From a bacterium (GTDB lineage: Bacteria; Patescibacteriota; Minisyncoccia; Phycocordibacterales; Phycocordibacteraceae), in NCBI GenBank assembly GCA_023269085.1, contig JAHFML010000001.1, positions 108,578 through 172,577 of the forward strand: DNA of 64,000 bases. The letters are read 5' to 3'. Positions 5,934 to 56,861 of the stretch are shown here, piece after piece; the stretch's first letter is position 1, and every line of letters begins with the position of its first letter. Made by a program: the position numbers and the translations under genes. Under the pieces are notes generated by a model. It was not told the origin of the DNA and searched no databases. It worked only from the letters and a program-made list of their open reading frames with translations.

Positions 5934-6040
5934 AAGGGTTGTTTATCCAAGCAGACTATACTGCACGAAAATATATTTGTCTACTTTCCGTTTACTCTTT
6001 CCCGCTTGCCACACCAACCTTATTCTCCCCCTCCCTTTCC

Positions 6041-38390: not shown

Positions 38391-38554
38391 TCATTCGACC
38401 TCACCAAGGTATTCGACTTCGCGTTCAAGAGAGACGCCAAAAATATTTTCCACCGCCATCTGCATGTCGCGCGCGAGACGCGCGATGTCGCTCGCGTGCG
38501 CGCCGCCGATGTCAAACGTCGTGAGTGGCGCGAGCGGGACGTTCTCTCTGAGAA

Positions 38555-40726
38555 TCATTTCACCTTCCCTTGTATCTGCGCGATCGCGGCCGCACCGGCA
38601 CTCGCCGCGTCAGGGAACTTCGCAACCGCGATATGAATCGTCGTAATCGCACCGGCTGAGTCACCCGCAGCATACTGCGCCGCTGCGAGCCCGAACCACA
38701 TTTGCGCGGTCGCACCCTCCGCATGAGCGCGCATATTCCAGATAGCGACAAGACGCGACCATGCCTTCGCATGGTAATAGGCTGACGCGAGCACATCGCT
38801 GTCGACGGTCGTCGTACCATAGGCGCGTTGCAGGATTATATCCGCGCCGGAGAGATCGCCCACACCGATGTCACCCGCCGCGGCATAGGTCGCGAGATCC
38901 CTGAACTTTGGTGCGAGCGCGTATGCCGAGGCGAAGTCGGCTTGCGCCGCTTTGAAGTCACCCTGCCCCCATTCGATACCTCCTGCCTCGATGAAGATGA
39001 CCTCCTTCTGGGGCGAGAGTTTCTGAGCCGTCTTCACCTCTTTAAGCGCGCTCGCACTGTCACCTATCGCGCGATAGGCATACGAGAGCTCGAGATACTC
39101 GCGAGCATCAGAGGGATATGCCGCAACCTGCTTCTGCATCTCGCCAACGGCGAGTGCGGTCGCCTGCCCCTTCTCGATATCCGTCGCATCCTTACTCTGT
39201 GCGACCGACGCGGCGAAGCTGACGATCTGTTCGCGGACTTCCTGCACCGCGAACGCTGGGTGGTCGGCAAGATCTTTGAAGACCGCGAGATTCCCCGAGA
39301 CGCCCGCGGCCGCGGGCGTAAGTGCGGTAATCAATTTCGTCGCAACCTCCATACCGGGTACGTTGACCGTCCAGACGAGCGCGAGGGCGACCACGGCCGC
39401 TATCGGGAGTGCATACGTTATCGCATCTTCGGCGCCGATGACCGGTCGCTCTTCGCACCGCACTATCGGCCGTGCGACCTGCGAATCGATGAGTGCGAGT
39501 ATCGCGAAGAAATAGATATAAGAATAGATATTATCGAAGACGAAGAGATTGTGCACCGCATAGCCGACGAGCGCTGCGGTGAGCGCGATGCGCTCTGGGC
39601 GCGAGAGCTCTGAGCTCCGCCACAAGAGCGTGATAGCCGAGACAAAGAGCCCGATATAGAGCAGGAACGCCGGTACGCCTCCTGCGGTCATCCAATCCAT
39701 GAACGCGTTATGCGCGCGATCGAACCACTGCTCTTGCTGGTATAGCGATGGCTCATAATAGGTATTGAAGACATAATTGAACCCTTCTTGCCCCCAGCCG
39801 ACGATCGGGCGCTCCGCGACACCCTCAAGCGCCATGTGCCAGATAGTGAAGCGCGTTGAGCCGTCGGCGAGCGAGATCGACGCGACCCGCTGTAAGACAT
39901 GATTCTGCTGCACGAATGCCGATGAGCGGATAAGGAGGAACCCGCCGACGATAACCACGAGGCCGACCATCGCGAACATCGCATACTGGCGAACCTTCTT
40001 CCCGGCGGTAAGCGCCGTGAGCACCGCGGCGACGCCGAGACCGAGCACGAGACCGATGATCGTACCGCGCGTCTCGGTGAAGAAGATGAGCATACCCTCA
40101 AGCGTCGCAAGCGCGATGAGCGACCACGTGAGCCACGCGCGCCGCTCGGTGAGCGCGAGCCAGAGCGCGATGAACATGCTGAAGAGAAAATAGATCGCGA
40201 GATACGCCGAGTTGCCCAAGGTCGCGTCGATGCGCGTCGAGCCCTGATGGATAGCGAGCGCCCCGCCGAGCTGGAGAAGCGCGTAGCCCGCCACGACGAG
40301 CGAGACCGCGAGCGAGGTGAGAAACCACGCGCGCCACTTCTTCTCGACGCGCAAGACCGCGCCGGAGGCGACGAAGAAGCCGAGCAGGTGGACGAGCAGG
40401 ACCCAGCCCTCCATGCGTTCGAAGTTGCTCCAGAAGGCCTTGGCGACATTCACGGCGAAGAGATCGGCGATGAACATCCACGCAACGAACGCGACGACCA
40501 TGATGCCGATCCACGACACGCGCGGCCGATACTCCTTATCGAGGAGTGCAAGCACCCCCCACGCGCACACCGCTATCTCGACCAGGATCCTGAAGAAGAA
40601 CGCCTTGCCGGTGATAAAAGGGAAGAAATATGTGTCGGCCACGAGAAGCGGCGTGAGCGGAATGAGAAAGAGCGCCCCGAGCGCCACCCACCGCGCCACC
40701 TGTCGTGCTGTTTGATTGTTTTGCAT
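38555..40726 (-). CDS. O-antigen ligase (Wzy_C) family polytopic membrane protein with a C-terminal TPR-like domain
   Basis: More than 10 TM helices, then a soluble region of about 250 aa (AYRAIGDSASALKEVKTAQKL… TPR-like). The Wzy_C-type loop …FTETRGTIIGLVLG… is present. Confidence 0.7.
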   Translation of the reverse strand: MQNNQTARQVARWVALGALFLIPLTPLLVADTYFFPFITGKAFFFRILVEIAVCAWGVLALLDKEYRPRVSWIGIMVVAFVAWMFIADLFAVNVAKAFWSNFERMEGWVLLVHLLGFFVASGAVLRVEKKWRAWFLTSLAVSLVVAGYALLQLGGALAIHQGSTRIDATLGNSAYLAIYFLFSMFIALWLALTERRAWLTWSLIALATLEGMLIFFTETRGTIIGLVLGLGVAAVLTALTAGKKVRQYAMFAMVGLVVIVGGFLLIRSSAFVQQNHVLQRVASISLADGSTRFTIWHMALEGVAERPIVGWGQEGFNYVFNTYYEPSLYQQEQWFDRAHNAFMDWMTAGGVPAFLLYIGLFVSAITLLWRSSELSRPERIALTAALVGYAVHNLFVFDNIYSYIYFFAILALIDSQVARPIVRCEERPVIGAEDAITYALPIAAVVALALVWTVNVPGMEVATKLITALTPAAAGVSGNLAVFKDLADHPAFAVQEVREQIVSFAASVAQSKDATDIEKGQATALAVGEMQKQVAAYPSDAREYLELSYAYRAIGDSASALKEVKTAQKLSPQKEVIFIEAGGIEWGQGDFKAAQADFASAYALAPKFRDLATYAAAGDIGVGDLSGADIILQRAYGTTTVDSDVLASAYYHAKAWSRLVAIWNMRAHAEGATAQMWFGLAAAQYAAGDSAGAITTIHIAVAKFPDAASAGAAAIAQIQGKVK

Positions 40727-40769
40727 AGTACCGGAAACTATACCATAACGTAGTGTAGTATTACCCCAT

Positions 40770-42050
40770 ATGCCGACCCTACGGAACCGTCTCTACCACC
40801 TTCTCCGCGCGAGCGAGAAATACACCAAAACCGACATGGTGTATCTCGCCAAGGGCGGGTTCTGGATGAATCTCAACTATGTCGTAGTCAACACCATGGC
40901 TTTTGTTCTCTCTATCGCCTTTGCACATCTCCTATCAAAAGACGCCTACGGCATATATCAGTTTATTCTCGCTGTAGGAGCAATATTGAGCTCCTTGACT
41001 CTGACGGGGATGAACAGCGCCGTTATGCGAGCCGTGGCGCGAGGCAAAGAAGGCCCCCTGCAAGCATCGATTCCGATTCAGTTACGCTACAACAGCGGCG
41101 TCCTTGCCGTTGCGCTCGGCATTGCCATATATTACTGGTTCCATCAAAATGCGACGCTCGCCCTCGGCGTGTTGATCTTTGGTGCACTGATGCCTCTCTA
41201 TGCCACATTCAATACCTACACGGCGCTCATCGGAGGCAGAAAGGATTACTTCGGTGGGTTCATCTTCGGAACGATATTGAGCTTTGTTTATAGCGCTTGC
41301 ATGCTTGCCTCTCTTTTCTTCATACACAATCCTGCTCTCCTTATCTTTGTAAACATCGGCACCAACGCGCTCGTCACGGGCATTCTTTATCGAGTCGCTC
41401 TTGCGCACTACAAACCGAATGATGAGCAGGACCCTGACACCATCTCATACGGCAAACATCTCAGTTTCGCAAATATCATAACCTCTATCGCGAACAACGT
41501 AGACTCCATTCTCGTTTTTCACTTCATGGGCCCGTCGCTTCTCGCTCTGTACACATTCGCCGGTGCCATACCTGAACGCATGAACGGTATTTTGAAAAGC
41601 ATTCCGGTGCTTGCTTTTCCAAAATTGTCCACCAAACCTGTTGCTGAACTCCGCGGCGCGTTGGTGCGGAAATCATTGCAGTTCGCAGGCATCACTCTGC
41701 TTGTCACGATCATTTATACGGCCTGCACGGCTCCCCTATTCAGACTCTTGTTTCCGCAGTATCAAGATGCCGTTCTCTATTCGCAGGGCTACGCACTCGC
41801 TCTTGTCTTCGCATCGCTATTAAAGCTTCCGCTACAAGCTCTGACGGTAGCGCGGGCGCAAAAAGAGATTTACCTTTATAATCTCACCAGCGCTACAGTC
41901 TCTATAGTCCTGATGAGCGCGATGCTTATAGCATACGGAATCTGGGGGCTGATAGCGTCGCGAGCATTGAGTGGTATCGTCAATTATCTGCTTATTTTGT
42001 TCTTGTTCCCTTCAGGTGAAGCTAGCTCTGCTGCCGTGCTGTATGAATGA
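40770..42050 (+). CDS. Wzx-like oligosaccharide flippase (MOP superfamily polysaccharide biosynthesis protein)
   Basis: 426 aa with about 12 predicted TM helices and typical Wzx length and hydropathy. Confidence 0.7.
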   Translation: MPTLRNRLYHLLRASEKYTKTDMVYLAKGGFWMNLNYVVVNTMAFVLSIAFAHLLSKDAYGIYQFILAVGAILSSLTLTGMNSAVMRAVARGKEGPLQASIPIQLRYNSGVLAVALGIAIYYWFHQNATLALGVLIFGALMPLYATFNTYTALIGGRKDYFGGFIFGTILSFVYSACMLASLFFIHNPALLIFVNIGTNALVTGILYRVALAHYKPNDEQDPDTISYGKHLSFANIITSIANNVDSILVFHFMGPSLLALYTFAGAIPERMNGILKSIPVLAFPKLSTKPVAELRGALVRKSLQFAGITLLVTIIYTACTAPLFRLLFPQYQDAVLYSQGYALALVFASLLKLPLQALTVARAQKEIYLYNLTSATVSIVLMSAMLIAYGIWGLIASRALSGIVNYLLILFLFPSGEASSAAVLYE

Positions 42051-42876
42051 GATACCCCGAAGATTGAAGCAGTCTACATGGTGGCCAACCATCTTGAGAA
42101 TTCGGTCATTTCACTCTGACAAAAAACGCCGCGCGGCATACTTCGCGAATCTGGATACTGCGATACGACGCAAAAAAATCGTCGTGCATCTTCCCTATGG
42201 AGGTCTCGGCGATGTGCTGATATATTCGTCTCTGCCGCGACTACTCAAAGAACAGCTCAATGTCGACTTCTATCTCTCCGAAAGTTCTACAAAGGTCGTT
42301 CGCCACCCCGATATAATGAAATTGTGCTTCGAGATGAATCCGTTCTTCAAGGGGTTTGCGCCTGACAGCGAGGGTATCACGCTCGCCGGTTGGGATCGTC
42401 ACCGCTTCTTCTTTGTGCCAGAAAGAAATAGAATAGCGACTTACGAGCACCAATTCGGTCTGCGTGGTAATGGATTGCCAGAAATATTCTATACGCCCAA
42501 AAGCATTCCCTCCTTCGCGAATACTCTCCTTATAGACAAGAATATGATCGCCGGCAAAGCGCTCGGCTGGAAAGTATCTGAAGAATTCTTTTCTCACTTG
42601 ATCGAACAGGCAAAAAAACAAAGAAAGGCTGTCACGTATGTCGATCCAACGGGTCAGGATTTATTCACCTACGCCGATATGCTACATTCTTCTTGGCGAT
42701 TCGTGTGCCTATATTCTGGAAGCCACGCGCTCGCCGTAGCTCTGCATAAACCTGCGTATGTCGTCGTGCCTGAAAACTTCGACGGTGGCGGCATCGCAAA
42801 ATTCATCTATCCGCAATCTTCAGTAACCTATTTGAGAAAACGCAATATGAAAAGATATTTGTACCCGTATGAATGA
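42043..42876 (+). CDS. glycosyltransferase family 9-like (heptosyltransferase fold)
   Basis: KKIVVHLPYGGLGDVLIYSSLPRLLKEQ resembles the GT9 N-terminal motif (…GGLGD.l…P…lk…P). Start placed at MNEIPRRL. Confidence 0.55.
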   Translation: MNEIPRRLKQSTWWPTILRIRSFHSDKKRRAAYFANLDTAIRRKKIVVHLPYGGLGDVLIYSSLPRLLKEQLNVDFYLSESSTKVVRHPDIMKLCFEMNPFFKGFAPDSEGITLAGWDRHRFFFVPERNRIATYEHQFGLRGNGLPEIFYTPKSIPSFANTLLIDKNMIAGKALGWKVSEEFFSHLIEQAKKQRKAVTYVDPTGQDLFTYADMLHSSWRFVCLYSGSHALAVALHKPAYVVVPENFDGGGIAKFIYPQSSVTYLRKRNMKRYLYPYE

Positions 42877-43543
42877 GACTTCGAAATCGAAAAAGATATG
42901 GCGTGAGTCGGTAGAGCATTCGGTGCTGAAAGGGAAAGGCATCGACATCGGCGCTGGCAATGATCCGGTCGTACCGGATGTGAAGATATTTGATACGCTT
43001 GATGGCGACGCGAACGACATAACGAATTATGTGCACGAGCAGTTCGATTTCGTCTATGCATCTCATTGCCTCGAACACATGCATAATCCGGGGGAAACGC
43101 TCATCGACTGGTGGGCGCTCGTCAAGAAAGGCGGGCACCTGTTTTTTATCGTTCCTGATGAAGATCTGTACGAGCAAGGCGTCTTTCCGAGCAGGTTCAA
43201 TCCGGATCATAAGGCAACCTTCACTCTGTCGAAGACAAAGAGCTGGTCGCCTCGCTCCTTCAATGTCCTTGATCTCGCTCTATCGCTCCCTTCAGGAGAG
43301 ATCGTCAGTCTGGCGCTTCAAGACTATGCCTACGACCGATCACTTATGACCTTCGGGCCGCGGCGCGCACAAAATGTGTTCCTGCGATTCTTGATACGAG
43401 CATACGCCAAGATAATAAAACTGACTGGACGCGGGGGGATTTCTTTCATTGACGCTCATATTAGAAACTACGCGGCGATAGATCAAACAAGAAACAAGGA
43501 CACGCTCGCGCAAATACAATGCATTGTGCGAAAGACGGCATGA
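42869..43543 (+). CDS. class I SAM-dependent methyltransferase
   Basis: GIDIGAGND (motif I) and the FDFVYASHCLEHM pattern. Confidence 0.7.
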   Translation: MNETSKSKKIWRESVEHSVLKGKGIDIGAGNDPVVPDVKIFDTLDGDANDITNYVHEQFDFVYASHCLEHMHNPGETLIDWWALVKKGGHLFFIVPDEDLYEQGVFPSRFNPDHKATFTLSKTKSWSPRSFNVLDLALSLPSGEIVSLALQDYAYDRSLMTFGPRRAQNVFLRFLIRAYAKIIKLTGRGGISFIDAHIRNYAAIDQTRNKDTLAQIQCIVRKTA

Positions 43544-44529
43544 AAAAAGAAATTATCATCCTTACTCACAACGGCGGCGATATCGCGAACCAGCTTTGGA
43601 ACCATATCAGCATCGCCGCATACGCTCGCGAGCGCGGCTACGCGTGCGAAAATCACTCGTTCTTTGAGCATGCTGATGAATTCCCTCTCCTATATCCGAA
43701 CGACCGATTGGTGCGATTGGTATTCTTCCGCACGTTCTCCTTGATGCGCCGCTTATCGCTCGGACCGATAACCCAGCACCGCATACTCGTGCGCGTATGG
43801 CGCAGGGCATATGCTCTCTATGCGTTGTACATGAAAGGTCGTTTCTCAATTCTCGATGCTGGCAACGATTTCAATGCGCGCGGCGTATATCTCTTGCCGC
43901 CATCCGCTCCAGCAACCAGAGCGCTCGTTAGATTTGAAAGAGATTCGACGACGACGCTCCTATGCACCGGCTGGCTCTTCCGCAATCCAGAGGGGATCAG
44001 GCGCCACCACACATTTCTTATTGAGCTTCTCAAGCCACAAGAGGACACCTCCCTACGAGTCGCCTCTCGGCTCCAGCCGCTTCGAGCGCGATTCTCTCAT
44101 CTTGTCGGCGTTCATATACGCCAAGCCGACTATACCTATTTCAAAAACGGACGGTTCTACTTGTCGCCTGAACGTATGCGCACTATTATGGGAGAATATC
44201 TCTCCCGACAAAAGCGCGCGTCGGAAGACACTTGCTTCATCCTGTGCTCTGACGGTCCTTTGTCCGAAGATGATTTTACCGGTCTGCATACCGTTTTGTC
44301 GCTCGGCGACGCGGTTGGAGATTTATATGTGCTCGCTGGTTGCGATGTAATCATAGGATCGGACAGCACCTTCGGCGATCTTGCCGCGTATCTTGGTGAC
44401 ATTCCCCACATCATTGCAAAAAACTGCGCCATGGATTGGGCGTATTACGCCGATGTACACGCATGGTTCCCTAATCGCTACAGCTATGCGACGAGTCTCA
44501 ATGCCGATCGCGAGAACATTATTTCCTGA
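43540..44529 (+). CDS. glycosyltransferase family 11-like (alpha-1,2-fucosyltransferase fold)
   Basis: Resembles the GT11 N-terminal GGLGNQ(L/M)FQYA motif (here LTHNGGDIANQLWNHISIAAYA). The C-terminal half is conserved. Confidence 0.55.
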   Translation: MKKEIIILTHNGGDIANQLWNHISIAAYARERGYACENHSFFEHADEFPLLYPNDRLVRLVFFRTFSLMRRLSLGPITQHRILVRVWRRAYALYALYMKGRFSILDAGNDFNARGVYLLPPSAPATRALVRFERDSTTTLLCTGWLFRNPEGIRRHHTFLIELLKPQEDTSLRVASRLQPLRARFSHLVGVHIRQADYTYFKNGRFYLSPERMRTIMGEYLSRQKRASEDTCFILCSDGPLSEDDFTGLHTVLSLGDAVGDLYVLAGCDVIIGSDSTFGDLAAYLGDIPHIIAKNCAMDWAYYADVHAWFPNRYSYATSLNADRENIIS

Positions 44530-44544
44530 AAAAGCGAATTCCCG

Positions 44545-45231: not shown

Positions 45232-45238
45232 GGTAAGG

Positions 45239-47630: not shown

Positions 47631-47636
47631 AGCAGA

Positions 47637-48704: not shown

Positions 48705-48739
48705 AGTATCACACGACGAAAGGGGATCCGAACGGCTTA

Positions 48740-49264: not shown

Positions 49265-50217
49265 ATCGCTATTATAGCACTTGTCACAACCTCGAGTGAT
49301 TCGCGCCAGCGCTTTGCCCACGATTCGGCATCGAGAATGGGCATCTTCAACTCGCCGCGCATGCCTGTCTGTAAAACATGCGCTGTCGCGGCGGTGAGCT
49401 CCGTGCGCGACGCGATGACCGCGCCCGCCTCGCGGGCGATGCCGTAGTCGGGCGAGACGACCGGCACGCCTGCGGCGAGCGCTTCGACGATGCTCGCGCC
49501 ATAACTCTCATGCCTTGAAGTGCTCACGACAACATCCGCCTGCGCGAGGTAGGGCGCGGGAGCCTGCCAGCCGGGGAACTCGACAAAAGGCGCGAGCTGC
49601 TTCGCTCGTTCGCGCAGTTTCCCCTCGAGACTCCCCGCGCCGAGCATGATGAGCCCGGCATCGATACCTCGCGCGCGCACCTGCACGAGCACCTCAAGCG
49701 CCATGAGTGGATCCTTCTCCTCTTCAAAACGGCCGATCCAAAGGATAGTTTTTGTAAAGCGCGAATGCGGCGTGTGCGACATATTCGCACATGGCGCAAG
49801 ATCGACAAAGATAGGCAAGACGACAATCGGTGCACGAAGACGCCATGAGACGAGCGTGTCCCGCAACTTTTCAGAAACGACTCGTATCGAATCGGCGCGG
49901 GCGAGGAGAAAACGCGCGAGCACGCGGCGCGTGAACGGCTGTGCCGTGAGGTCGGTATGCACTTGCAGATTCAGTCGCGCGCCGCAGCGGCGCGCGATAA
50001 CCCACGCGGCGAGCCCGCGCCAGAAGGGGTCTTGTGCGGTCACGACATCCGGCTGTGTCACACGCGTCGCTCGCACAATTTCGCGAAAAGAGTGTCTCTG
50101 CGGCCATACGAACACATCGAGCCGATCGACCTGTGATCGTTGAAAGAGCAATCGCGCATGCGCGGCGCTTCCTTCTTCGAGAATCGACGGGTCGCCGCTC
50201 AGCATCAGCACCTTCAT
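49261..50217 (-). CDS. glycosyltransferase family 4
   Basis: GT-B C-terminal domain (…GWQAPAPYLAQADVVVSTSRHESYGASIVEALAAGVPVVS…). Confidence 0.8.
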   Translation of the reverse strand: MKVLMLSGDPSILEEGSAAHARLLFQRSQVDRLDVFVWPQRHSFREIVRATRVTQPDVVTAQDPFWRGLAAWVIARRCGARLNLQVHTDLTAQPFTRRVLARFLLARADSIRVVSEKLRDTLVSWRLRAPIVVLPIFVDLAPCANMSHTPHSRFTKTILWIGRFEEEKDPLMALEVLVQVRARGIDAGLIMLGAGSLEGKLRERAKQLAPFVEFPGWQAPAPYLAQADVVVSTSRHESYGASIVEALAAGVPVVSPDYGIAREAGAVIASRTELTAATAHVLQTGMRGELKMPILDAESWAKRWRESLEVVTSAIIAI

Positions 50218-51317
50218 ACATGCGCGTGCACGATCTCGACCGTCCGCGCGAGCATCGCGTCGATCGAGAAGTGCGACGAAGATTCGACCGCGCGGAGCAC
50301 CAGCCGCGCGCGCAGAGCCTCATCGCTGAATATGCGCGTCAATGCGGCCGCGAGCGCCGAGGTGTCGCCGACCGGCACCAAGAGACCGTTATCGTCGTTG
50401 GTAATGACCTTGAGATTACCGCCCGCGCGCGTCGTGATGATCGGCACGCCGAGCGAGAGCGCCTCAATAAGCAGATGCGAGAGCCCTTCATACGAGGAAT
50501 TGAGAACGAAGACATCCGCCATTTGTATCGTCGCGAGGGTGTCCGCGTGCGAGAGAAGCCCGGTGAAGACCGTTCGTCCCGGCAACTGCTCTGCCGCATG
50601 TCGCTCCAGCACTTCACGATCGGGTCCTTCTCCCACCACCGCGAGAGACGTCTTCTTCCCCGCCATGAGCGCTATAGCGTCGATAACGCCCTCGATATGC
50701 TTCCACGGCACGAGCCGGCCAGCGGTCACGACGAGCGGCCGCGGCAATTTCTCTACGGCCGCAGGGACAGCACCCACCGCCTCAATAACGACCGCATTAT
50801 GGACCACCTCGATTTTCTCTTCCCCAATGCCCCACGTCGCAACAATCGTCTTCAGATACTCGCTCGGCACGATGATGATCTGTGCATGGCGCGCGACGCG
50901 CGACTGCACGCTCTGCAAGAATCGCACTCGCATCGGTACCTGTTTCATCGTGACGAATTCATCGAGCGACGCCGTCACGCCGAAGCGTTGGCGCCCTTGC
51001 TCCCAGGCATAATCGCCGACGATCTTCACGATGAGCGGCTTGTCGAGACTCCACGCCGCGAGACACGCCGGCAGACCCGTCGAGACCGGATCGAGCGTGA
51101 GCACCGCATCGGCCTTCTTGAGTGCACGGCGCACGCGGAAGAAGTACGCGAGATGCCGCACGAGCTTCGGCAAGTGCCGCACGTCATCGAACTTCACGAG
51201 GTTCACCGCGACCCCCTTCGCAGGGAGCCCTTCCATAAGCAGCTTGGCGTAGGTCGCCGGCCCCCCGATCTCGGGCGGATACAGTGGCGTCGCGATGACG
51301 AGCTTCATACTCTCCAT
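50214..51317 (-). CDS. glycosyltransferase family 4
   Basis: MKLVIATPLYPPEIGGPATYAK… plus EGLSHLLIEALSLGVPIITT. Start chosen at MESMK. Confidence 0.8.
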   Translation of the reverse strand: MESMKLVIATPLYPPEIGGPATYAKLLMEGLPAKGVAVNLVKFDDVRHLPKLVRHLAYFFRVRRALKKADAVLTLDPVSTGLPACLAAWSLDKPLIVKIVGDYAWEQGRQRFGVTASLDEFVTMKQVPMRVRFLQSVQSRVARHAQIIIVPSEYLKTIVATWGIGEEKIEVVHNAVVIEAVGAVPAAVEKLPRPLVVTAGRLVPWKHIEGVIDAIALMAGKKTSLAVVGEGPDREVLERHAAEQLPGRTVFTGLLSHADTLATIQMADVFVLNSSYEGLSHLLIEALSLGVPIITTRAGGNLKVITNDDNGLLVPVGDTSALAAALTRIFSDEALRARLVLRAVESSSHFSIDAMLARTVEIVHAHV

Positions 51318-51380
51318 GGTATCTTTTCTGCAACCTTTCCGCCACCGGTCGAGTTGCATTAGGTATGCTAAACTGCCCCT

Positions 51381-51923
51381 ATGCGCATCGTGCTCGCTAC
51401 GCCCTTCTACCCTCCTGACACTGAAGACCCCGCGCCCTATGTCAAAGAGCTCGCGCAACGTCTCTCGTCGCTCCACACGATCACGGTAGTGACCTATGGC
51501 TCTTTGCCGGAAAAGATAAGCGGCGTGACTATTCTCGCCGTCGACAAGCGTCAACCCATTTTCTTCAGATTATTCTCCTATGCACTCACCTTGTGGCGCG
51601 TGGCGCGCACAGCTGATGTCGTGTATGCCGAGAATGGCCCTTCGGTCGAAATGCCGGTGGGCATTGCCGCGAGAGTGACCCGCACACCATTCATGGTGCA
51701 TATCGGTGATGCTTCGGCTCATAGCCGCGCGACAAAAGAAATTATCCCTCGTCTTCTCGAGCGATTCGCGACGAGCGCCGCTTGCGCCGTTATTTCTGAT
51801 ATGCCACTTCCGAAGCCTGAAGTCCTACCGTTTTCGCCCGAGCCGCGAGCCGCGCAGGAGGCGCACCGCGCGTCGTGGGAAGAACATCTTCGTCTGCTCA
51901 ACGCTACTTTTGCTCATGCCTAA
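51381..51923 (+). CDS. stand-alone GT4 N-terminal-half-like protein (paralog of the N-terminus of the 50214..51317 GT4), divergently transcribed
   Basis: MRIVLATPFYPPDTEDPAPYVKELAQRL versus MKLVIATPLYPPEIGGPATYAKLLMEGL. Only about 180 aa, so no C-terminal GT-B domain. Confidence 0.45.
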   Translation: MRIVLATPFYPPDTEDPAPYVKELAQRLSSLHTITVVTYGSLPEKISGVTILAVDKRQPIFFRLFSYALTLWRVARTADVVYAENGPSVEMPVGIAARVTRTPFMVHIGDASAHSRATKEIIPRLLERFATSAACAVISDMPLPKPEVLPFSPEPRAAQEAHRASWEEHLRLLNATFAHA

Positions 51924-53019
51924 CGATGCCTACGCACTATGGGAAGAGTATAAAAAACGCGAGCTCGCGAAGCTGGCTCCCCTGCTCGCCGAGCTCGGCT
52001 ATACGCTCGACGCCGATCAGCCGCACGTGAGCGGTGAGCGCTATCTGATGCAGGCAGTGACGACGATGAGCGGCCGCAAGCTCATTCTCCTCGGCCGTCG
52101 TACCCGCGACAACACGCGAGTCGTGATAAAAGCTACGCGCGCTGCGAACGGCGCGCGCGAGCTCACCCATGAGCGGGCGTGTCGCGAAGTCTTGCATCGC
52201 ATCGACTTCGCGCATGGCGTCTTCTTCTCACCGCAAGAGATTCTCTTTACCCAACGAAGCGGCTACACGATTTCGATACAGGCATTCATCGAGCAGGAGA
52301 AGCCGTTCCTCGTACGAACCACCGAAGAGCAGTTCGCGTTCGCGCTCAAAGCGTTCAAGGCGCAAGAGAGCGCCCGTGCGACCACCTCTGGCCACGAACG
52401 CCTCGTCGAGAAGACCTTCGGTATCATGCGCGCGAACGATTATCTACGAGCGTTTGCCCAGTTTGTCGAGAACATATCCCGCGAAGCGCCGAGCCTCGTG
52501 CCCCGGACCCTGCTCGATGAGGCGAACACGCTACTGGTCAAACAACAAGAAACCATCGAGCAATACTGCGGCTTCCTCACGCACACCGACTTCGTCCCGC
52601 ACAACTTCCGCATCGTCGATGGCAACATCTATCTGCTCGATAACTCCTCGCTTCGCTTCGGTAATAAATATGAAGGGTGGGCGCGCTTCTTAAACTTCAT
52701 GACGCTCTACAACCCCGAGCTCGAACGCGCGCTTGTCGAATATGTGCGCGTCAATCGTACGAGGGAAGAATCGCTTGCGCTCAAGCTCATGCGCGTCTAT
52801 CGCCTCGGCGAGATCATCTGGTATTACGTAGGCACGCTCTCAAGCTGTTCGGGCGACCTCCGTCTTTTGAACGAAGAACGCGTGCGCCTGTGGACGCGTG
52901 TGCTCGAAGCGCAACTGCACGACTCGCTCTTGCCGGCTTCATTCTTGGACGACTACCGCGCGAAGCGCGACACGCTTCGGAGCGACGAAGAGAAGCGTCG
53001 GCAACAGGGGCTGCACTAA
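51916..53019 (+). CDS. phosphotransferase (APH/choline-kinase-like protein kinase fold) family protein
   Basis: HTDFVPHNFRIVDGNIYLLDNS is the catalytic loop plus DxD/N-type motif of the APH family. Start at MPNDAYAL. Confidence 0.6.
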   Translation: MPNDAYALWEEYKKRELAKLAPLLAELGYTLDADQPHVSGERYLMQAVTTMSGRKLILLGRRTRDNTRVVIKATRAANGARELTHERACREVLHRIDFAHGVFFSPQEILFTQRSGYTISIQAFIEQEKPFLVRTTEEQFAFALKAFKAQESARATTSGHERLVEKTFGIMRANDYLRAFAQFVENISREAPSLVPRTLLDEANTLLVKQQETIEQYCGFLTHTDFVPHNFRIVDGNIYLLDNSSLRFGNKYEGWARFLNFMTLYNPELERALVEYVRVNRTREESLALKLMRVYRLGEIIWYYVGTLSSCSGDLRLLNEERVRLWTRVLEAQLHDSLLPASFLDDYRAKRDTLRSDEEKRRQQGLH

Positions 53020-53561
53020 TCGAGCGCCTCTACCTGCGCCACCATCTGGGCATACGCGTCAACGATCGGGTGTTGCCACGACTCGTGTAGCATCGCGAGC
53101 ATCGACTCTTCAAACCATACTTTCTTCTCGCGGCCCGCGTTGAAATAGTTCCAGACGGCATTTCCCTCGCGCGCATGCGCCGCGATGAGACTCTCGGCAT
53201 TCGCTATTTTGTCGGCCGTCGCTATCGCCTTCGCGTCTTCGGGCGCGACACGCACCGCTTCGATATAGGCCCGTTTCTTCTCCTCCCACGGGAGGGTGTC
53301 GTCGTGTGTCACGGGCGCGACGAGATCGGCAACCGCGTCGCCAAGCTCTCGCCGGACATCGTCGAGCGAAACAGGTGTATCTTCCACGACATCATGCACG
53401 AGCCCCGCCGCAATGACCTCGTCTGAGAACCCATACCGTGCGAGCAAGAGAGCGACGCGGACAGGATGGACAATATAGGGCGTCGGCGCCTCCTTGCGCA
53501 TCTGCCCCTCGTGCGCGCGAAGCGCGAGTGCGATTGCCTTTTCGACAAGCGGTCCGTTCAT
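53016..53561 (-). CDS. HD-domain hydrolase, RelA/SpoT-type (small alarmone hydrolase-like)
   Basis: AHEGQMRKEAPTPYIVHPVRVALLL…VHDVVEDT matches the SpoT hydrolase HD signature. Confidence 0.65.
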   Translation of the reverse strand: MNGPLVEKAIALALRAHEGQMRKEAPTPYIVHPVRVALLLARYGFSDEVIAAGLVHDVVEDTPVSLDDVRRELGDAVADLVAPVTHDDTLPWEEKKRAYIEAVRVAPEDAKAIATADKIANAESLIAAHAREGNAVWNYFNAGREKKVWFEESMLAMLHESWQHPIVDAYAQMVAQVEALD

Positions 53562-55717
53562 ACGCAGACTTTATCAAACACCTTCTTCTGCATCTGCACG
53601 GCGATCTTGTCCCAGTCGTAGTCGCGTTCGACCATCGCGCGGGCGCGCTCTGATATTTCGTGCGCCTTCTCGGGGTTCGCAATGACTTCTTGTATCTTCT
53701 CGGCGAGCGCCTTCGGATCATCTGGCGACACGAGCCACGCGGTCTCACCGTTTACCGCGTAGTCGGCGATGCCGCCCACGCCCGAGGTGACAAGCGGGAG
53801 CCTCGAAGCGAGTGCCGAGATGAAAGCGTTCCCGAGCCCTTCAGAGCGAGACGGCGCGACGAAGATATCACTCGCCTTCCGGTAGAGCGTGACCACCGAG
53901 CGATCGACGCGGCCGGTGAAGATGACCCGATCTCGCACGCCGAGCTTCTTTGCCAGATCTTTCAATTTCGCTTCATCTTCGCCATCGCCGACCGCAACGA
54001 ATTTTATAGTGTCGGGCAGATGCGTGAGCGCTTCGATAACGGTATCAAACCCTTTCTGATGCACGAGCCGCGAGGTGTTCACGAGATATATCTCACTCTC
54101 CTTTTTCCCGAGCTCTTTCTTCATCTCATCAATCTCGACTTGCGAGAATGCTTGCTTCAAGTCGTTCGGGTTCGCACCATTCTTGACGAGGACGATCTCG
54201 CCCGCGTAGCCCATCTCGTGTGCCCACTGGCTCAAATAATTCGAGATGCTCTGCACCATCGTCGCGCTCGTGAACGCTCGCTTGAAGAGCGGCCAGACTG
54301 GGCGCATCACCTTCTCGACATGCTCTTTGGGGTCTCCCTCTTGGAGCGTGAGCACATATGGCGTCCTTGGCGAGAAGATCTTGAAGAGGGCCGCGGGGAT
54401 GCCGGCCGAATGCGCCATCATCGCCCAGATACCGTCATAGTGATACCGCGCATTGAGCGAGAGACCCTTCAAGGCACCGAAGATTTGGAAGAGATACTTA
54501 TTCGATTTCAAAATAAACTTCTTGCCGTAGTCCTCAAAGCGCGGGTCGGGGAGCCCGAAGCCGATGCGATGCACGAGGATGTTCCCATAGCGCTCGGTGC
54601 GCGGGAGATTCGAATTCCAGAGACAGGTGACCATGTGGAACTCGATATCCTCGGGCGCGATGCGGTCCGTAATCTCTTTGATCGCCGGCTCGGCACCGCC
54701 GTGGAAGTTGGGATAGTAGACGAGCGAGAAGATAAGGACGCGCTTCTTCGGCCGAAGGGTCGCGAAATCGGTAGCATTGGTCTTCATAGGCGTTTCGTTA
54801 TGTTTAATATCCGCGACATACTCGGGAAGCGTGTGCTTCTGCTCCCAGCCAAGCGCTCTTATCTTAGTGCTGTCAACTGCTTCGACCGAGCGGGTCGACT
54901 TCGTCGGTGACGAATACTCGAGATGACCGCCGAACATCCGCGCAACATCAAGAAGGCTGTATGCCTCAGCGGCACAAATGCCATACTCGTCCCCTTCTCC
55001 TCTTTCTCCTGCAAGCACGATGCCATCTACGGTATCCATGACATGTGTGAACGGCCGCTTCTGATTCCCAGCCCCCGCGAGACGATGCGGCAATCCGTGA
55101 AGCCAGTTCTGGTGGAGAATTTCTATAACCGTTCCATATTGATCACCGCGCTCGCGCGGGCCATACACATTATAGAAATAAGTAATGGCGTAGGGCAATT
55201 CGAACCATCGCGCATACTGCACAACCAGATCGCTCATCGACGATTTCGCCCAAGTGTAGGGCGCGAGATCCTTCCCTGCAACACCGTCTTCGATACGATA
55301 GGCAAACTTCGTCGACGAACCGGCATAGATGAGCTTGCATCGTTTCTCTCGCCAATATTCTAAAACTCCCAAGGTGCCGTCTATATTCAAATCGAATGTT
55401 ACCGCTGGCTCTGCAAGCGAGTGCCGAACCCGCGAATATTCGCCCAAGTGATAAATGAGGTCGGGGGTCTCGGGGATGTGGCGCTCAATATCTTTGGTGT
55501 GGCCTTCGCGGTAGTCGACATCCCTATGCGTCTTACAGACGCCGGGCGAGCATTCTGCTGTGCAGAATGCTCTAGCCGGGACATGATTCTCGCGACTACC
55601 GGTGAAGTAGTTGTCGAGCGAGATGACGCGGTGACCGTCCTTGACCAGCCGCTCGCAGAGATGCCCTCCGATGAAGCCGGCGCCACCGGTCACGAGAATG
55701 AGTTTTGAATCAGCCAT
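53558..55717 (-). CDS. fusion protein: NAD-dependent sugar-nucleotide epimerase/dehydratase (SDR) N-domain plus GT4 glycosyltransferase C-domain
   Basis: LVTGGAGFIGGHLCERL (Rossmann), YxxxK-type region, then KRVLIFSLVYYPNFHGGAEPAIKE…SRSEGLGNAFISALASRLPLVTS (GT4). Confidence 0.8.
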   Translation of the reverse strand: MADSKLILVTGGAGFIGGHLCERLVKDGHRVISLDNYFTGSRENHVPARAFCTAECSPGVCKTHRDVDYREGHTKDIERHIPETPDLIYHLGEYSRVRHSLAEPAVTFDLNIDGTLGVLEYWREKRCKLIYAGSSTKFAYRIEDGVAGKDLAPYTWAKSSMSDLVVQYARWFELPYAITYFYNVYGPRERGDQYGTVIEILHQNWLHGLPHRLAGAGNQKRPFTHVMDTVDGIVLAGERGEGDEYGICAAEAYSLLDVARMFGGHLEYSSPTKSTRSVEAVDSTKIRALGWEQKHTLPEYVADIKHNETPMKTNATDFATLRPKKRVLIFSLVYYPNFHGGAEPAIKEITDRIAPEDIEFHMVTCLWNSNLPRTERYGNILVHRIGFGLPDPRFEDYGKKFILKSNKYLFQIFGALKGLSLNARYHYDGIWAMMAHSAGIPAALFKIFSPRTPYVLTLQEGDPKEHVEKVMRPVWPLFKRAFTSATMVQSISNYLSQWAHEMGYAGEIVLVKNGANPNDLKQAFSQVEIDEMKKELGKKESEIYLVNTSRLVHQKGFDTVIEALTHLPDTIKFVAVGDGEDEAKLKDLAKKLGVRDRVIFTGRVDRSVVTLYRKASDIFVAPSRSEGLGNAFISALASRLPLVTSGVGGIADYAVNGETAWLVSPDDPKALAEKIQEVIANPEKAHEISERARAMVERDYDWDKIAVQMQKKVFDKVCV

Positions 55718-56854: not shown

Positions 56855-56861
56855 GGAGAAA

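What the first reader, a model, noticed from the sequence alone, without database searches (positions are those of the whole stretch)
38555..55717. An 18-kb glycan-assembly island in a likely LPS-less cell: Wzy_C ligase-TPR, Wzx, nine glycosyltransferases, four SAM methyltransferases, a kinase and an epimerase-GT fusion
These are contiguous: an O-antigen-ligase-family polytopic protein with a TPR tail, and a Wzx-like flippase. Glycosyltransferases of the GT9-like, GT11-like, GT2 and GT4 types follow, with five or six GT4 copies including an SDR-epimerase::GT4 fusion. There are also four separate class I SAM methyltransferases and an APH-fold kinase.

Nothing here looks like lipid A or core LPS genes, and the genome context (sortase, no outer-membrane genes in view) suggests a monoderm. 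Wzy_C-family proteins also include the PglL/PilO O-oligosaccharyltransferases, so the likely output is a protein O-glycan on pilin, S-layer or giant surface proteins. It could instead be a cell-wall polymer.

The four methyltransferases and the kinase imply heavily methylated or phosphorylated sugars. That chemistry is not characterised for this kind of organism.
Basis: partly seen in the sequence, partly recalled or inferred. Interest (0 to 1): 0.65.

Follow-up and report, generated by a model that had tools for sequence, protein, structure and literature searches.

The report
CPR surface-glycan locus with conserved ligase
A tiny-genome groundwater bacterium (Candidate Phyla Radiation, Kaiserbacteria-like) keeps a conserved 'O-antigen-ligase-like' membrane enzyme at a fixed spot in its genome, next to a swappable set of sugar-building genes, so it probably coats its surface (most likely its proteins) with strain-specific glycans; this is a familiar kind of system in an unstudied lineage.

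Summary
The gene cluster is real and sits at the stated coordinates, but it is composite and somewhat over-counted. The organism is a Kaiserbacteria-like CPR bacterium (SecA 75-78% identical to such MAGs). The locus has three layers. (1) A core-genome Wzy_C+TPR protein (38555-40726) is 61-81% identical and syntenic with murB-secA-obg-gatB in its Kaiserbacteria-like relatives (31-49% in more distant Paceibacteria). It has an invariant R220/R292/H339 triad and a predicted topology of 13 TM helices plus an extracellular TPR domain. (2) A low-GC, wholesale-replaceable cassette (40770-46327, perhaps to 47630) holds Wzx, a GT11-like GT, GT4a, methyltransferases and an unassigned ORF. (3) A semi-conserved module (47637-55717) holds three GT4s, a small GT4-N-like ORF, an APH-fold kinase and an epimerase::GT4 fusion, interrupted by window-specific NYN and HD_4 genes. 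I count five GT4s plus one GT11-like and one unverified ORF, not nine GTs, and there is no GT2. Four methyltransferases, the kinase and the fusion are confirmed. In relatives the cassette instead holds MsbA/PglK-like ABC exporters, nonulosonic-acid, heptose or GtrA/PMT_2 genes. The best reading is a lipid-linked glycan flipped by Wzx and transferred en bloc by the conserved enzyme, most likely to proteins, as WsfB/PglL do. The acceptor is unproven. This is a new member of a known kind.

The parts
38555..40726 (-). Wzy_C-family polytopic glycan transferase with a C-terminal TPR domain (723 aa). This is the conserved anchor of the locus.
   Evidence: Pfam Wzy_C E=2e-17 plus TPR hits. It is syntenic with SecA in 26 loci: 61-71% identical in Kaiserbacteria-like relatives, 31-49% in more distant Paceibacteria, and 81% in L083. 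There are at least 3705 homologs; the 120 listed are ~720 aa. The ortholog profile hits WaaL 7TPG at E=1.7e-5. AF2 model: pLDDT 82, 13 TM helices plus an all-helical C-terminal domain.
39653..40093 (-). Wzy_C catalytic region (aa 212-358), containing the invariant TETRG (R220), R280, R292, GQEGFNY and DRAH (H339) motifs.
   Evidence: Pfam domain coordinates. Invariant columns in 56 orthologs. Spacing matches the WaaL and PglL triads.
38573..39301 (-). TPR-like superhelical domain (aa 476-718), predicted to be extracytoplasmic.
   Evidence: TPR Pfam hits. Foldseek and profile hits to CTPR and the OGT TPR domain. 13 TM helices with K+R counts of 16 on the inside against 5 on the outside in short loops.
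38391..38558 (-). murB remnant (55-aa ORF). An in-frame internal deletion of roughly 840 bp relative to the intact murB that follows Wzy_C-TPR in relatives.
   Evidence: tblastn of relatives' MurB. ENA gene call with a weak MurB_C hit. Intact murB in L083 and L084. blastn breakpoints.
40770..42050 (+). Wzx-type (MOP/Polysacc_synt) lipid-linked oligosaccharide flippase, transcribed divergently from Wzy_C-TPR. First gene of the variable cassette.
   Evidence: Pfam Polysacc_synt 1.5e-12. Nine or more hydrophobic segments. Only 30-42% identical in relatives. GC3 0.585.
42043..42876 (+). Unassigned 277-aa cassette ORF.
   Evidence: No hit in Pfam (E<=10), NCBIfam, PADLOC or PDB sequences. No counterpart in any fetched locus. 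GC 0.47.
42869..43543 (+). Class I SAM methyltransferase MT1 (cassette).
   Evidence: Pfam Methyltransf_23 and Methyltransf_11. GC3 0.58.
43519..44529 (+). GT11-like glycosyltransferase (alpha-1,2-fucosyltransferase family), with an HIRQADY motif (cassette).
   Evidence: Pfam GT11 E=0.039. Homologs at 34-47% identity, the named ones all Patescibacteria, many with PF01531 or named alpha-1,2-fucosyltransferase.
44545..45231 (-). Class I SAM methyltransferase MT2 (cassette).
   Evidence: Pfam Methyltransf_11 E=3.6e-23. GC3 0.53.
45239..46327 (-). GT4 glycosyltransferase GT4a (last low-GC cassette gene).
   Evidence: Pfam Glyco_trans_1_4 and Glycos_transf_1. GC3 0.565.
46324..47001 (-). Class I SAM methyltransferase MT3 (225 aa).
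   Evidence: Pfam Methyltransf_23. No counterpart at the syntenic position in L081/L082; one weak cassette hit in L032 (31% over 129 aa).
46998..47630 (-). Class I SAM methyltransferase MT4.
   Evidence: Pfam Methyltransf_11 and Methyltransf_23. No counterpart in relatives.
47637..48704 (-). GT4 glycosyltransferase GT4b. First gene of the semi-conserved module.
   Evidence: Pfam. Same-order counterparts at 35-40% identity in L081 and L082.
48740..49264 (-). NYN-domain protein (174 aa). A low-GC insertion specific to the window's lineage, probably not part of glycan synthesis.
   Evidence: Pfam NYN 3e-14. GC 0.427. Absent at this position in L081 and L082. Weak PADLOC HEC-09 hit.
49261..50217 (-). 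GT4 glycosyltransferase GT4c.
   Evidence: Pfam. 29-42% identical counterparts in L081 and L082.
50214..51359 (-). GT4 glycosyltransferase GT4d (381 aa by the source's gene call).
   Evidence: Pfam Glycos_transf_1 8e-33. ENA gene call. 32-40% identical counterparts.
51381..51923 (+). Conserved 180-aa ORF whose end overlaps the kinase start by 8 bp. Its orthologue in L082 hits GT4 N-terminal-domain models.
   Evidence: 50-51% identical counterparts in L081 and L082. Pfam marks on the L082 orthologue. No Pfam or NCBIfam hit for the window copy.
51916..53019 (+). APH/ChoK-fold small-molecule kinase (367 aa), a clade-conserved 'hypothetical protein'.
   Evidence: More than 1300 homologs; the 120 listed are 57-67% identical with no Pfam domain. 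Invariant K72, H223, D225, N230, D242. AF2 pLDDT 90.5. All 50 listed Foldseek hits are APH-type small-molecule phosphotransferases or kinases.
53016..53561 (-). HD_4 (RelA/SpoT hydrolase-like) small protein. A window-specific insertion between the kinase and the GT4, probably unrelated to glycan synthesis.
   Evidence: Pfam HD_4 1.5e-18. NCBIfam spoT_relA N-terminal region. Absent at this position in L081 and L082.
53558..55717 (-). In-frame fusion of an SDR NAD-dependent sugar epimerase/dehydratase (aa 1-305) with a GT4 (aa 325-717).
   Evidence: Pfam Epimerase 2e-38 plus Glycos_transf_1 6.5e-42. These are separate adjacent genes in L081 and L082 (61-62% and 46-51% identity). The junction reads through in frame. 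Collinear fusions are rare among representatives.

Best explanation
This is the surface-glycan locus of a Kaiserbacteria-like CPR bacterium, and it works as a lipid-carrier pathway.

Proposed steps:
1. Cytoplasmic GT-B enzymes (five GT4 and one GT11-like) build an oligosaccharide on a polyprenyl-phosphate carrier. They use sugars supplied or modified by the SDR epimerase. Decoration comes from up to four SAM methyltransferases and possibly a phosphate added by the APH-fold kinase.
2. Wzx flips the lipid-linked glycan to the outer face of the membrane.
3. The conserved Wzy_C+TPR enzyme transfers the glycan en bloc to an acceptor outside the membrane. It uses the R220/R292/H339 site in its large external loop.

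I think the acceptor is most likely Ser/Thr (or Tyr) on secreted surface proteins such as pilins, an S-layer protein or giant adhesins. On this view the extracellular TPR domain acts as the protein-binding module, which makes the enzyme a general O-oligosaccharyltransferase of the WsfB/PglL type.

The transferase is core genome and tolerant of different glycans. The adjacent cassette is exchanged between lineages, which gives strain-specific surface glycans.

Shown here: domain content, conservation pattern, cassette replacement, predicted topology, kinase fold.
Inferred: the carrier lipid, the order of steps, the acceptor, and the chemistry of the product.
The general pathway I rate at about 0.8. 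The protein acceptor specifically I rate at about 0.45, and that is the figure given as confidence.
For: - **Family and active site.** Pfam Wzy_C is above threshold. The ortholog profile hits only WaaL 7TPG among PDB membrane proteins, at E=1.7e-5. R220/R292/H339 are invariant in 56 orthologs, with the spacing of the functionally essential WaaL and PglL residues (PMC3643930).
- **Topology.** The AF2 model has 13 TM helices followed by a TPR domain. Positive-inside counts are 16 against 5, which puts the TPR domain outside. PglS is described as 13 TM plus a C-terminal periplasmic domain (PMC12800693). WsfB and PglL have a C-terminal TPR (PMC2943079). The pilin OTase TfpW has a periplasmic TPR.
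- **Glycan-tolerant transferase rather than a repeat-specific enzyme.** The protein is 61-81% identical across its Kaiserbacteria-like relatives while the neighbouring genes are replaced. In the 81% relative, Wzx is only 42% identical and nothing else matches.
- **Neighbours in 20 relatives are always glycan genes, but different ones**: MsbA/HepA/PglK-like ABC exporter (11-12 proteins), Wzx (8), NeuB/CMP-synthetase/PseB-like/DegT genes, GtrA with PMT_2, methyltransferases and heptose-pathway genes.
- **The cassette looks horizontally exchanged.** Its GC3 is 0.52-0.59 against a background of 0.68.
- **Flippase.** It lies adjacent to the transferase and is divergently transcribed.
- **Host.** It is a CPR bacterium, and a related genome lacks LPS genes.
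Against: - No initiating phosphoglycosyl transferase (Bac_transf or WecA type) is in the 64-kb window.
- No acceptor gene is linked: no pilin-type or LPXTG motif was found in the window, and no S-layer protein was identified.
- The PglL-specific Pfam model (PglL_A, PF15864) did not hit.
- The only solved relative by sequence is a WaaL, which transfers to a glycolipid rather than a protein.
- In relatives the gene overlaps murB by 4 bp, which could point to a cell-wall acceptor instead.
- The semi-conserved GT4/kinase module is not shown to feed the same pathway. In L081 and L082 no Wzy_C gene lies within 10 kb of it.
Confidence: 0.45

Rival explanations
1. The pathway is the same, but the Wzy_C+TPR enzyme ligates the flipped glycan to a non-protein acceptor. 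That could be a membrane glycolipid anchor or peptidoglycan/lipid II, which would make a wall- or membrane-anchored secondary polymer. This would be WaaL-like chemistry without lipid A, playing a role analogous to secondary cell-wall polysaccharides or lipoglycans in monoderms.
For: - The only solved homolog is the WaaL ligase 7TPG.
- The gene is translationally coupled to murB in relatives, with a 4-bp overlap in L083 and a 7-bp gap in L084. Gene order next to murB-secA is conserved in 26 loci.
- No acceptor protein gene is linked, and the PglL_A motif is absent.
- The GT4s of the conserved module give sub-threshold NCBIfam matches to glycolipid synthases such as alpha-monoglucosyl-DAG synthase and GlcN-PG synthase, which could make an anchor.
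Against: - The host clade is reported to lack lipid A.
- WaaL is described from its structure as having 12 TM helices with a cytoplasmic C-terminus (my recollection, not checked here). The CPR protein instead has the 13-TM plus external-domain architecture reported for O-OTases.
- A C-terminal TPR is a feature noted for the O-OTases WsfB, PglL and TfpW.
- Gene adjacency in a genome of about 1 Mb is weak functional evidence, and the window itself has lost murB while keeping the ligase.
Confidence: 0.3
2. The Wzy_C+TPR protein is a Wzy-type polymerase. It would polymerise flipped repeat units into a capsule- or EPS-like polymer, with the TPR domain acting as a built-in chain-length or scaffold module.
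For: - PF04932 also covers many Wzy polymerases (my own knowledge).
- A Wzx gene is adjacent.
- The window's cassette contains no other polytopic candidate polymerase.
- 7TPG was deposited as a 'polymerase/ligase'.
Against: - Wzy polymerases are repeat-unit specific and are among the most variable genes of such loci (my own knowledge). This protein stays 61-81% identical across its Kaiserbacteria-like relatives while the cassette is replaced.
- In about half of the relatives the adjacent exporter is an MsbA/PglK-type ABC protein, not Wzx. That pairing is not expected for Wzy polymerases but is expected for ligases and OTases.
- No Wzz/PCP co-polymerase is in the window.
Confidence: 0.12
3. The 17-kb stretch is not one system. 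The semi-conserved module (47637-55717: GT4s, the 180-aa ORF, the kinase, epimerase::GT4) would make a separate product such as a membrane glycolipid or phospho-sugar. It would simply lie next to the Wzx/Wzy_C-TPR cassette in this genome.
For: - The module is conserved in order in L081 and L082 with no Wzy_C gene within the 10 kb fetched.
- The kinase and the 180-aa ORF are clade-wide core genes.
- Composition differs between the cassette and the module.
- In L025 TrwB lies about 1.8 kb from the Wzy_C homolog, with no such module between them.
Against: - In L081 and L082 the module is itself directly flanked by further variable GT, MT, GtrA and PMT_2 genes, as expected if it supplies a conserved inner part of the same glycan.
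- The backbone order TP_methylase-TrwB ... Wzy_C-SecA is collinear in the window and in L025.
- No second flippase or transferase is present in the window to export a separate product.
Confidence: 0.2
4. Part of the island (NYN, HD_4, and the GT4s that hit the 'GT4-conflict' model) is an anti-phage defence system rather than surface-glycan biosynthesis.
For: - Pfam GT4-conflict hits above cut-off for GT4c (44 bits), with weaker hits for GT4b and the fusion.
- The NYN gene is a low-GC insertion with a weak PADLOC HEC-09 hit at E=6e-5.
Against: - PADLOC gives no hit for any GT4, the kinase, the HD protein or the 180-aa ORF.
- The same GT4s score much better on the generic GT4 models.
- NYN and HD_4 are absent from the otherwise syntenic module in relatives, so they are not functional partners of the GT4s.
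Confidence: 0.03

Closest known systems
WsfB / WsaB S-layer protein O-oligosaccharyltransferases and their slg loci (Paenibacillus alvei, Geobacillus stearothermophilus)
   Same: Both are in monoderm hosts. Both have a Wzy_C-domain polytopic enzyme, with a C-terminal TPR in WsfB (or a separate TPR protein, WsaA). Both loci hold GTs, a methyltransferase activity (a 2-O-methyl cap made by WsaE) and an exporter for a lipid-linked glycan (PMC2943079). Relatives of the CPR locus also use ABC exporters.
   Different: No S-layer target gene has been identified here. No direct sequence comparison with WsfB was possible. The CPR gene is core genome, fixed beside murB-secA, with the glycan genes swapped around it. 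No Gal-1-P transferase (WsaP-like) is in the window.
PglL / PilO(TfpO) / PglS O-oligosaccharyltransferases of Proteobacteria
   Same: Both have a Wzy_C domain and an Arg/Arg/His triad at equivalent spacing. Both have 13 TM helices plus a C-terminal extracytoplasmic domain. A relaxed glycan specificity would fit a conserved enzyme next to variable glycan genes.
   Different: The PglL_A (PF15864) signature was not detected. No pilin gene is adjacent. The C-terminal domain is a ~245-residue TPR superhelix. The host is monoderm-like, with no periplasm bounded by an outer membrane.
WaaL O-antigen ligase (Cupriavidus metallidurans, PDB 7TPG/7TPJ)
   Same: It is the only solved structure detected by sequence profile: E=1.7e-5, query residues 209-374 against chain residues 180-348. 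Same Pfam family and the same catalytic-loop residues.
   Different: The lipid A-core acceptor is almost certainly absent in CPR. The CPR protein has an extra TM helix and an external TPR domain. Its best NCBIfam hit is the IctB family, far below cut-off.
O-antigen / capsule / pgl loci with conserved flanks and replaceable serotype cassettes
   Same: Conserved flanking genes, a sharp homology breakpoint about 95 bp into wzx, lower GC in the cassette, and alternative sugar pathways (nonulosonic acid, heptose, fucosyl-type) in different lineages.
   Different: The host is an ultra-small episymbiont-type lineage, and the fixed element is the transferase itself. Part of the GT set (GT4b-d, epimerase, GT4) is semi-conserved rather than serotype-specific.
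APH-fold small-molecule kinases (aminoglycoside/macrolide phosphotransferases, MTR kinase, fructosamine-3-kinase; functionally WaaP/LicA-type glycan-decorating kinases)
   Same: Predicted fold and catalytic residues. It lies inside a glycan locus, as the sugar and choline kinases of LPS and teichoic-acid pathways do (my own knowledge).
   Different: No sequence-level match to any Pfam, NCBIfam or PDB family. The substrate is unknown. No LicC/LicD-type partners were seen.

Membership tests
Wzy_C superfamily (PF04932; O-antigen ligase / O-OTase / some Wzy) | Significant match to the Wzy_C profile | tested here: met
   63.7 bits against a gathering score of 31.7, aa 212-358. All 120 listed homologs carry PF04932.
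Wzy_C superfamily (PF04932; O-antigen ligase / O-OTase / some Wzy) | Polytopic protein with a large extracytoplasmic loop that carries the conserved Arg...Arg...His residues | tested here: met
   The loop at 267-350 lies between helices 9 and 10. R220/R292/H339 are invariant in 56 orthologs. Spacing is 72/47, against 73/50 in WaaL and 74/51 in PglL.
WaaL (LPS O-antigen ligase) | Lipid A-core acceptor and LPS pathway present in the organism | tested here: inconclusive
   No lpx, kds or waa genes in the 64-kb window. The host is CPR, and a related Parcubacterium lacks lpxC and kdsA (PMC5220378). The rest of the source genome was not examined.
WaaL (LPS O-antigen ligase) | Sequence or structure similarity to a solved WaaL | tested here: met
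   Profile hit to 7tpg_B at E=1.7e-5. A fold-level comparison of the TM domain was not possible.
WaaL (LPS O-antigen ligase) | 12-TM architecture with both termini cytoplasmic and no extra domain (as I recall from the WaaL structure paper; not checked here) | tested here: not met
   13 predicted TM helices plus a 245-residue C-terminal TPR domain on the outside.
PglL/PilO/PglS-type O-oligosaccharyltransferases | Wzy_C core followed by an extra TM helix and a C-terminal extracytoplasmic domain | tested here: met
   AF2 model and positive-inside rule. PglS is described as 13 TM plus a periplasmic C-terminal domain.
PglL/PilO/PglS-type O-oligosaccharyltransferases | PglL-specific motif PglL_A (PF15864) | tested here: not met
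   No PF15864 hit at E<=0.01 in the Pfam scan. The model was built from proteobacterial sequences.
PglL/PilO/PglS-type O-oligosaccharyltransferases | Transfers lipid-linked glycan to Ser/Thr of proteins | not testable with these tools
   This needs glycoproteomics or heterologous reconstitution.
PglL/PilO/PglS-type O-oligosaccharyltransferases | Frequent adjacency to a pilin or other target gene | tested here: not met
   No class III signal-peptide motif or LPXTG motif in any window ORF. The conserved neighbours are murB and secA.
WsfB/WsaB S-layer O-OTase systems | Wzy_C plus a C-terminal (or adjacent) TPR, located in a glycan gene cluster of a monoderm | tested here: met
   Domain architecture. 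Neighbouring GT, MT and flippase genes. Architecture as described in PMC2943079.
WsfB/WsaB S-layer O-OTase systems | Sequence orthology to WsfB/WsaB, and an identified S-layer glycoprotein target | not tested
No S-layer protein was recognised in the window.
Wzy O-antigen/capsule polymerase | Repeat-unit specificity: the gene co-varies with the glycan cassette | tested here: not met
   81% identity to L083 while Wzx is 42% identical and all other cassette genes are unrelated. 61-71% identity across Kaiserbacteria-like relatives that carry different cassettes.
Wzy O-antigen/capsule polymerase | Obligate pairing with Wzx and a Wzz/PCP co-polymerase | tested here: not met
   Among 116 neighbour proteins from 20 relatives, 11-12 are MsbA/HepA/PglK-like ABC exporters, usually in place of Wzx. 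No Wzz hit in the window.
Wzx/Wzy-type lipid-carrier pathway (general) | Initiating polyprenyl-phosphate glycosyl-1-phosphate transferase (WbaP/PglC or WecA type) | tested here: not met
   No Bac_transf or Glycos_transf_4 hit among the window proteins scanned. It may be encoded elsewhere in the genome.
Wzx/Wzy-type lipid-carrier pathway (general) | MOP-family Wzx flippase | tested here: met
   Polysacc_synt 48 bits against a cut-off of 28.2.
APH / choline-kinase fold kinases | Bilobal kinase fold with the catalytic Lys, the HxDxxxxN loop and a metal-binding Asp | tested here: met
   All 50 listed Foldseek hits are APH-type small-molecule phosphotransferases or kinases (APH, macrolide and other phosphotransferases, MTR kinase, fructosamine-3-kinase, AmiN), E about 3e-7, TM-score up to 0.69 on the target. 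K72, H223, D225, N230 and D242 are invariant in 50 homologs.
APH / choline-kinase fold kinases | Match to the Pfam APH family (PF01636) or another curated kinase family | tested here: not met
   No Pfam hit at E<=10, only a chance-level (E=0.046) unrelated NCBIfam hit, and no PDB-sequence hit even with a 50-sequence profile.
GT11 (alpha-1,2-fucosyltransferase family) | Match to PF01531 and the HxRxxD motif | tested here: inconclusive
   The ORF's own hit is 13.6 bits, below the 23.9 cut-off. The HIRQADY motif is present. Many homologs at 34-47% identity carry PF01531 or are named alpha-1,2-fucosyltransferase.

The most novel reading that the evidence does not exclude
The ~720-aa Wzy_C+TPR protein is the general protein O-oligosaccharyltransferase of Kaiserbacteria/Paceibacteria, a large slice of the CPR. 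Fixed beside murB-secA, it would glycosylate Sec-exported surface proteins (pili, giant adhesins, an S-layer) with whatever lipid-linked glycan the neighbouring swappable cassette provides. Wholesale cassette exchange would then be the main way these episymbionts vary host recognition and phage susceptibility. A still more unusual variant, at a probability of about 0.15, is that it ligates glycans to lipid II or peptidoglycan, which would be a wall-glycopolymer attachment route that does not use LCP enzymes.
Probability: 0.35. Interest if true: 0.7.

Novelty: new member of a known kind. Interest (0 to 1): 0.45.

Why it matters
The CPR cell envelope is explicitly described as unresolved (PMC5220378), and glycosylation in Patescibacteria is flagged as unexplored (PMC11623550). 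This locus gives a concrete, testable handle on it. There is a single, highly conserved transferase with at least 3,700 homologs and a recognisable active site, sitting next to a hypervariable glycan cassette.

If the enzyme is an O-OTase, it would explain how organisms with genomes of about 1 Mb generate surface diversity for attaching to hosts and evading phages. It would also provide a marker gene for finding the glycan loci in thousands of CPR MAGs. A glycan-promiscuous monoderm O-OTase could be of interest for glycoengineering.

If instead it is an ordinary ligase or polymerase, the finding is routine comparative genomics. Either way, it corrects the view of the region as one uniform 'island'.

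Tried and rejected
- **Kinase identification by sequence.** Pfam at E<=10, NCBIfam, and phmmer or profile searches against PDB all failed. Only structure prediction settled it.
- **The 277-aa ORF.** Nothing in Pfam, NCBIfam, PADLOC, PDB sequences or any fetched locus. The 'GT9-like' label stays untested.
- **Search for acceptor genes.** Regex scans for pilin class III signal peptides and LPXTG found nothing.
- **Defence-system reading.** PADLOC was negative apart from one weak NYN hit, so I rejected it.
- **Wzy candidates in relatives' cassettes.** The extra polytopic ORFs were mostly PMT_2 GT-C enzymes, so this test was only weakly informative.
- **Linking the two conserved anchors in one relative.** Flank limits and the single genome-contig scan prevented this. 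Only the window and the distant L025 show both ends.
- **Literature.** No paper combined 'Candidate Phyla Radiation' with 'O-antigen ligase'.

Full report
**Source organism.** The window's SecA (35486-38017) is 75-78% identical to SecA of MAGs labelled Candidatus Kaiserbacteria, Paceibacterota or Parcubacteria. The rest of the window is typical CPR housekeeping: GyrB, PheST, S2, RF, aldolase, GAPDH, GatB, Obg and Mur ligases, plus a sortase, a PgaC-like GT2 and a 2556-aa surface protein. The exact Wzy_C-TPR, kinase-like and GT11-like proteins occur on a public 307-kb contig.

**Observation check.**
- Wzy_C+TPR (38555-40726)
- Wzx (40770-42050)
- four SAM methyltransferases
- four stand-alone GT4s
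- an epimerase::GT4 fusion (53558-55717)

Three ORFs gave no family hit, and I followed each up.
- **Kinase-like ORF (true start 51916).** It has more than 1300 homologs; the 120 listed are 57-67% identical and the named ones are 'hypothetical'. K72, H223, D225, N230 and D242 are invariant. Its confident AF2 model (pLDDT 90.5) matches only APH-type small-molecule phosphotransferases and kinases among the 50 listed hits.
- **336-aa ORF.** It is GT11-like through its homologs.
- **277-aa ORF.** It remains unassigned.

I count five GT4, one GT11-like and one unverified ORF, not nine GTs. No GT2 lies inside the island.

**Anatomy from comparative genomics.** I ran tblastn of the window proteins against 80 SecA-anchored loci. 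Wzy_C-TPR is syntenic with SecA-Obg-GatB in 26 of them. Identity is 61-71% in Kaiserbacteria-like genomes and 31-49% in more distant Paceibacteria. Almost nothing else from the island recurs there.

A Pfam census of 116 ORFs lying beyond Wzy_C-TPR in 20 relatives shows glycan genes again, but different ones:

| Family | Proteins matching |
|---|---|
| ABC_membrane + ABC_tran | 11-12 |
| Wzx (Polysacc_synt) | 8 |
| Methyltransferases | 11 |
| GT2 | 8 |
| NeuB | 7 |
| PseB-like dehydratase (Polysacc_synt_2) | 6 |
| CMP-sugar synthetase (CTP_transf_3) | 5 |
| DegT aminotransferase | 3 |
| GtrA | 3 |

The ABC proteins best match HepA, MsbA and PglK, all below the curated cut-offs. Extra polytopic ORFs are mostly PMT_2 GT-C enzymes.

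The closest relative (L083, Wzy_C-TPR 81% identical) has a Wzx only 42% identical and otherwise unrelated cassette genes. Nucleotide homology ends about 95 bp into wzx. L084 (74% by tblastn; 73%) carries GtrA, PMT_2, UDP-sugar dehydrogenase and heptose-pathway-like genes.

Composition agrees with this picture. Wzx through GT4a (40770-46327) has GC3 of 0.52-0.59, against 0.68 +/- 0.09 for flanking genes.

On the other side, the context of kinase orthologs (L081, L082) shows a same-order, semi-conserved module:

| Gene | Identity to window |
|---|---|
| GT4b | 35-40% |
| GT4c | 29-42% |
| GT4d | 32-40% |
| 180-aa ORF | 50-51% |
| kinase | 62-65% |
| GT4 (of the fusion) | 46-51% |
| epimerase (of the fusion) | 61-62% |

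The module is followed by TrwB-like, TP_methylase and Mur ligase genes, as in the window. L082 (not L081) also has a PKD/LTD protein before TrwB, 37% identical to the window's ComEA/PKD protein. NYN (GC 0.43) and HD_4 are absent there, so they are insertions in the window's lineage. Epimerase and GT4 are separate genes in relatives. In the window the stop codon is lost and the frame reads through a 19-residue linker. Collinear fusions are rare among 1.8 billion representatives. The distant locus L025 has TrwB only about 1.8 kb from its Wzy_C homolog, which shows that the backbone is collinear.

**The conserved enzyme.**
- *Active site.* Fifty-six orthologs share invariant T217/T219/R220/G221, R280, R292, GQEGFNY and D336/R337/A338/H339. 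R220/R292/H339 reproduce the spacing of the functionally required E. coli WaaL R215/R288/H338 and PglL R224/R298/H349 (PMC3643930).
- *Solved relatives.* The ortholog profile detects only one membrane protein in the PDB, WaaL 7TPG, at E=1.7e-5.
- *Topology.* The AF2 model (pLDDT 82, pTM 0.76) has 13 TM helices and then a TPR superhelix at residues 476-718. Short-loop K+R counts of 16 against 5 support an N-in, C-out topology. That places the TPR domain outside, beside the catalytic loop.
- *Comparable enzymes.* This architecture is described for O-OTases. PglS has 13 TM helices plus a periplasmic C-terminal domain (PMC12800693). WsfB and PglL have a C-terminal TPR (PMC2943079). TfpW has a periplasmic TPR.
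- *What is missing.* The PglL_A Pfam signature is absent. No pilin or LPXTG gene is nearby.

**Interpretation.**
- *Polymerase unlikely.* A conserved enzyme beside a replaceable cassette, paired alternately with Wzx or with an ABC exporter, argues against a repeat-specific Wzy polymerase. It favours a glycan-tolerant ligase or OTase.
- *Protein acceptor favoured.* The external TPR domain and the 13-TM topology favour a protein acceptor, as do the monoderm precedent (WsfB/WsaB, with methyl-capped glycans) and the LPS-less host (PMC5220378).
- *What argues otherwise.* The WaaL-only structural hit, the 4-bp coupling to murB in relatives and the lack of a linked target keep a lipid or peptidoglycan acceptor as a serious rival.
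- *Gaps.* No initiating transferase is in the window. Whether the semi-conserved GT4/kinase module feeds the same glycan is inferred, not shown.
- *Defence reading.* PADLOC does not support it.

**Novelty.** The proteins with names are already auto-annotated 'O-antigen ligase family protein', and CPR genomes are known to be rich in GTs. I found no paper linking CPR to this enzyme. The layered anatomy, the cassette replacement and the OTase-like topology are new details, but the system belongs to a known kind.

Noticed in passing
window 38391-38558 (between Wzy_C-TPR and SecA): murB is reduced to a 55-aa in-frame remnant, with roughly 840 bp deleted internally. Every close relative examined has an intact murB of about 340 aa directly after Wzy_C-TPR (4-bp overlap in L083). 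Either this genome has another murB or it cannot make UDP-MurNAc.
   Followed up: yes
window 48740-49264: A NYN-domain (RNase-fold) gene with GC 0.43 is inserted between two GT4 genes and is absent from the syntenic module in L081 and L082. It has a weak PADLOC HEC-09 hit. A 36%-identical homolog sits just after SecA in L028.
   Followed up: partly
window 53016-53561: A stand-alone HD_4 protein (181 aa) resembling the RelA/SpoT hydrolase domain, possibly a small alarmone hydrolase, is inserted between the kinase and the epimerase::GT4 gene. It is not present at this position in relatives.
   Followed up: partly
window 51381-51923 and 51916-53019: A conserved 180-aa ORF overlaps the kinase start by 8 bp in the window and in L081 and L082. 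The L082 copy hits GT4 N-terminal-domain models, which suggests a half-GT4 partner or regulator of the kinase.
   Followed up: partly
window 23967-31637 and 32179-32976: A 2556-aa protein with Peptidase_S74 (endosialidase chaperone) and a C-terminal Ig-like domain carries an N-terminal HTH_17 hit. The neighbouring 265-aa protein has the same N-terminal HTH_17 hit, which is an odd feature for presumed surface proteins.
   Followed up: no
window 55733-58637: A ComEA-like HHH_3+PKD(+LTD) membrane protein and a TrwB/VirD4-like ATPase (PADLOC mad8, E=5e-11) form a flank that is conserved in L025 and L082 and partly in L081 and L028. It may be DNA-uptake or secretion machinery.
   Followed up: partly
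window 8712-9959: A membrane GT2 resembling the PgaC/IcaA poly-beta-1,6-GlcNAc synthase (NCBIfam E=6e-47, below cut-off). It would be a second, synthase-type polysaccharide route in the same genome.
   Followed up: no
L004, L005, L007 and other SecA-anchored loci (coordinates 1-6400); L084 1-9900: Relatives' cassettes encode a nonulosonic-acid pathway (NeuB, CMP-synthetase, PseB-like dehydratase, DegT), a NodU-like carbamoyltransferase (L004:2901-4610) and, in L084, heptose-pathway-like genes (GHMP kinase, SIS, HAD phosphatase) plus UDP-glucose dehydrogenase.
   Followed up: partly
L006, L013, L015 (record titles): MAGs titled 'uncultured Candidatus Saccharibacteria' share 73-74% SecA identity with this Kaiserbacteria-like window. 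L013 and L015 also carry the Wzy_C-TPR/SecA synteny; L006 holds too little upstream DNA to tell. These taxon labels are probably wrong.
   Followed up: no
L084 13253-13507: A small GIY-YIG/T5orf172 gene lies between murB and secA in one relative. It looks like a mobile-element-type insertion in the otherwise conserved backbone.
   Followed up: no
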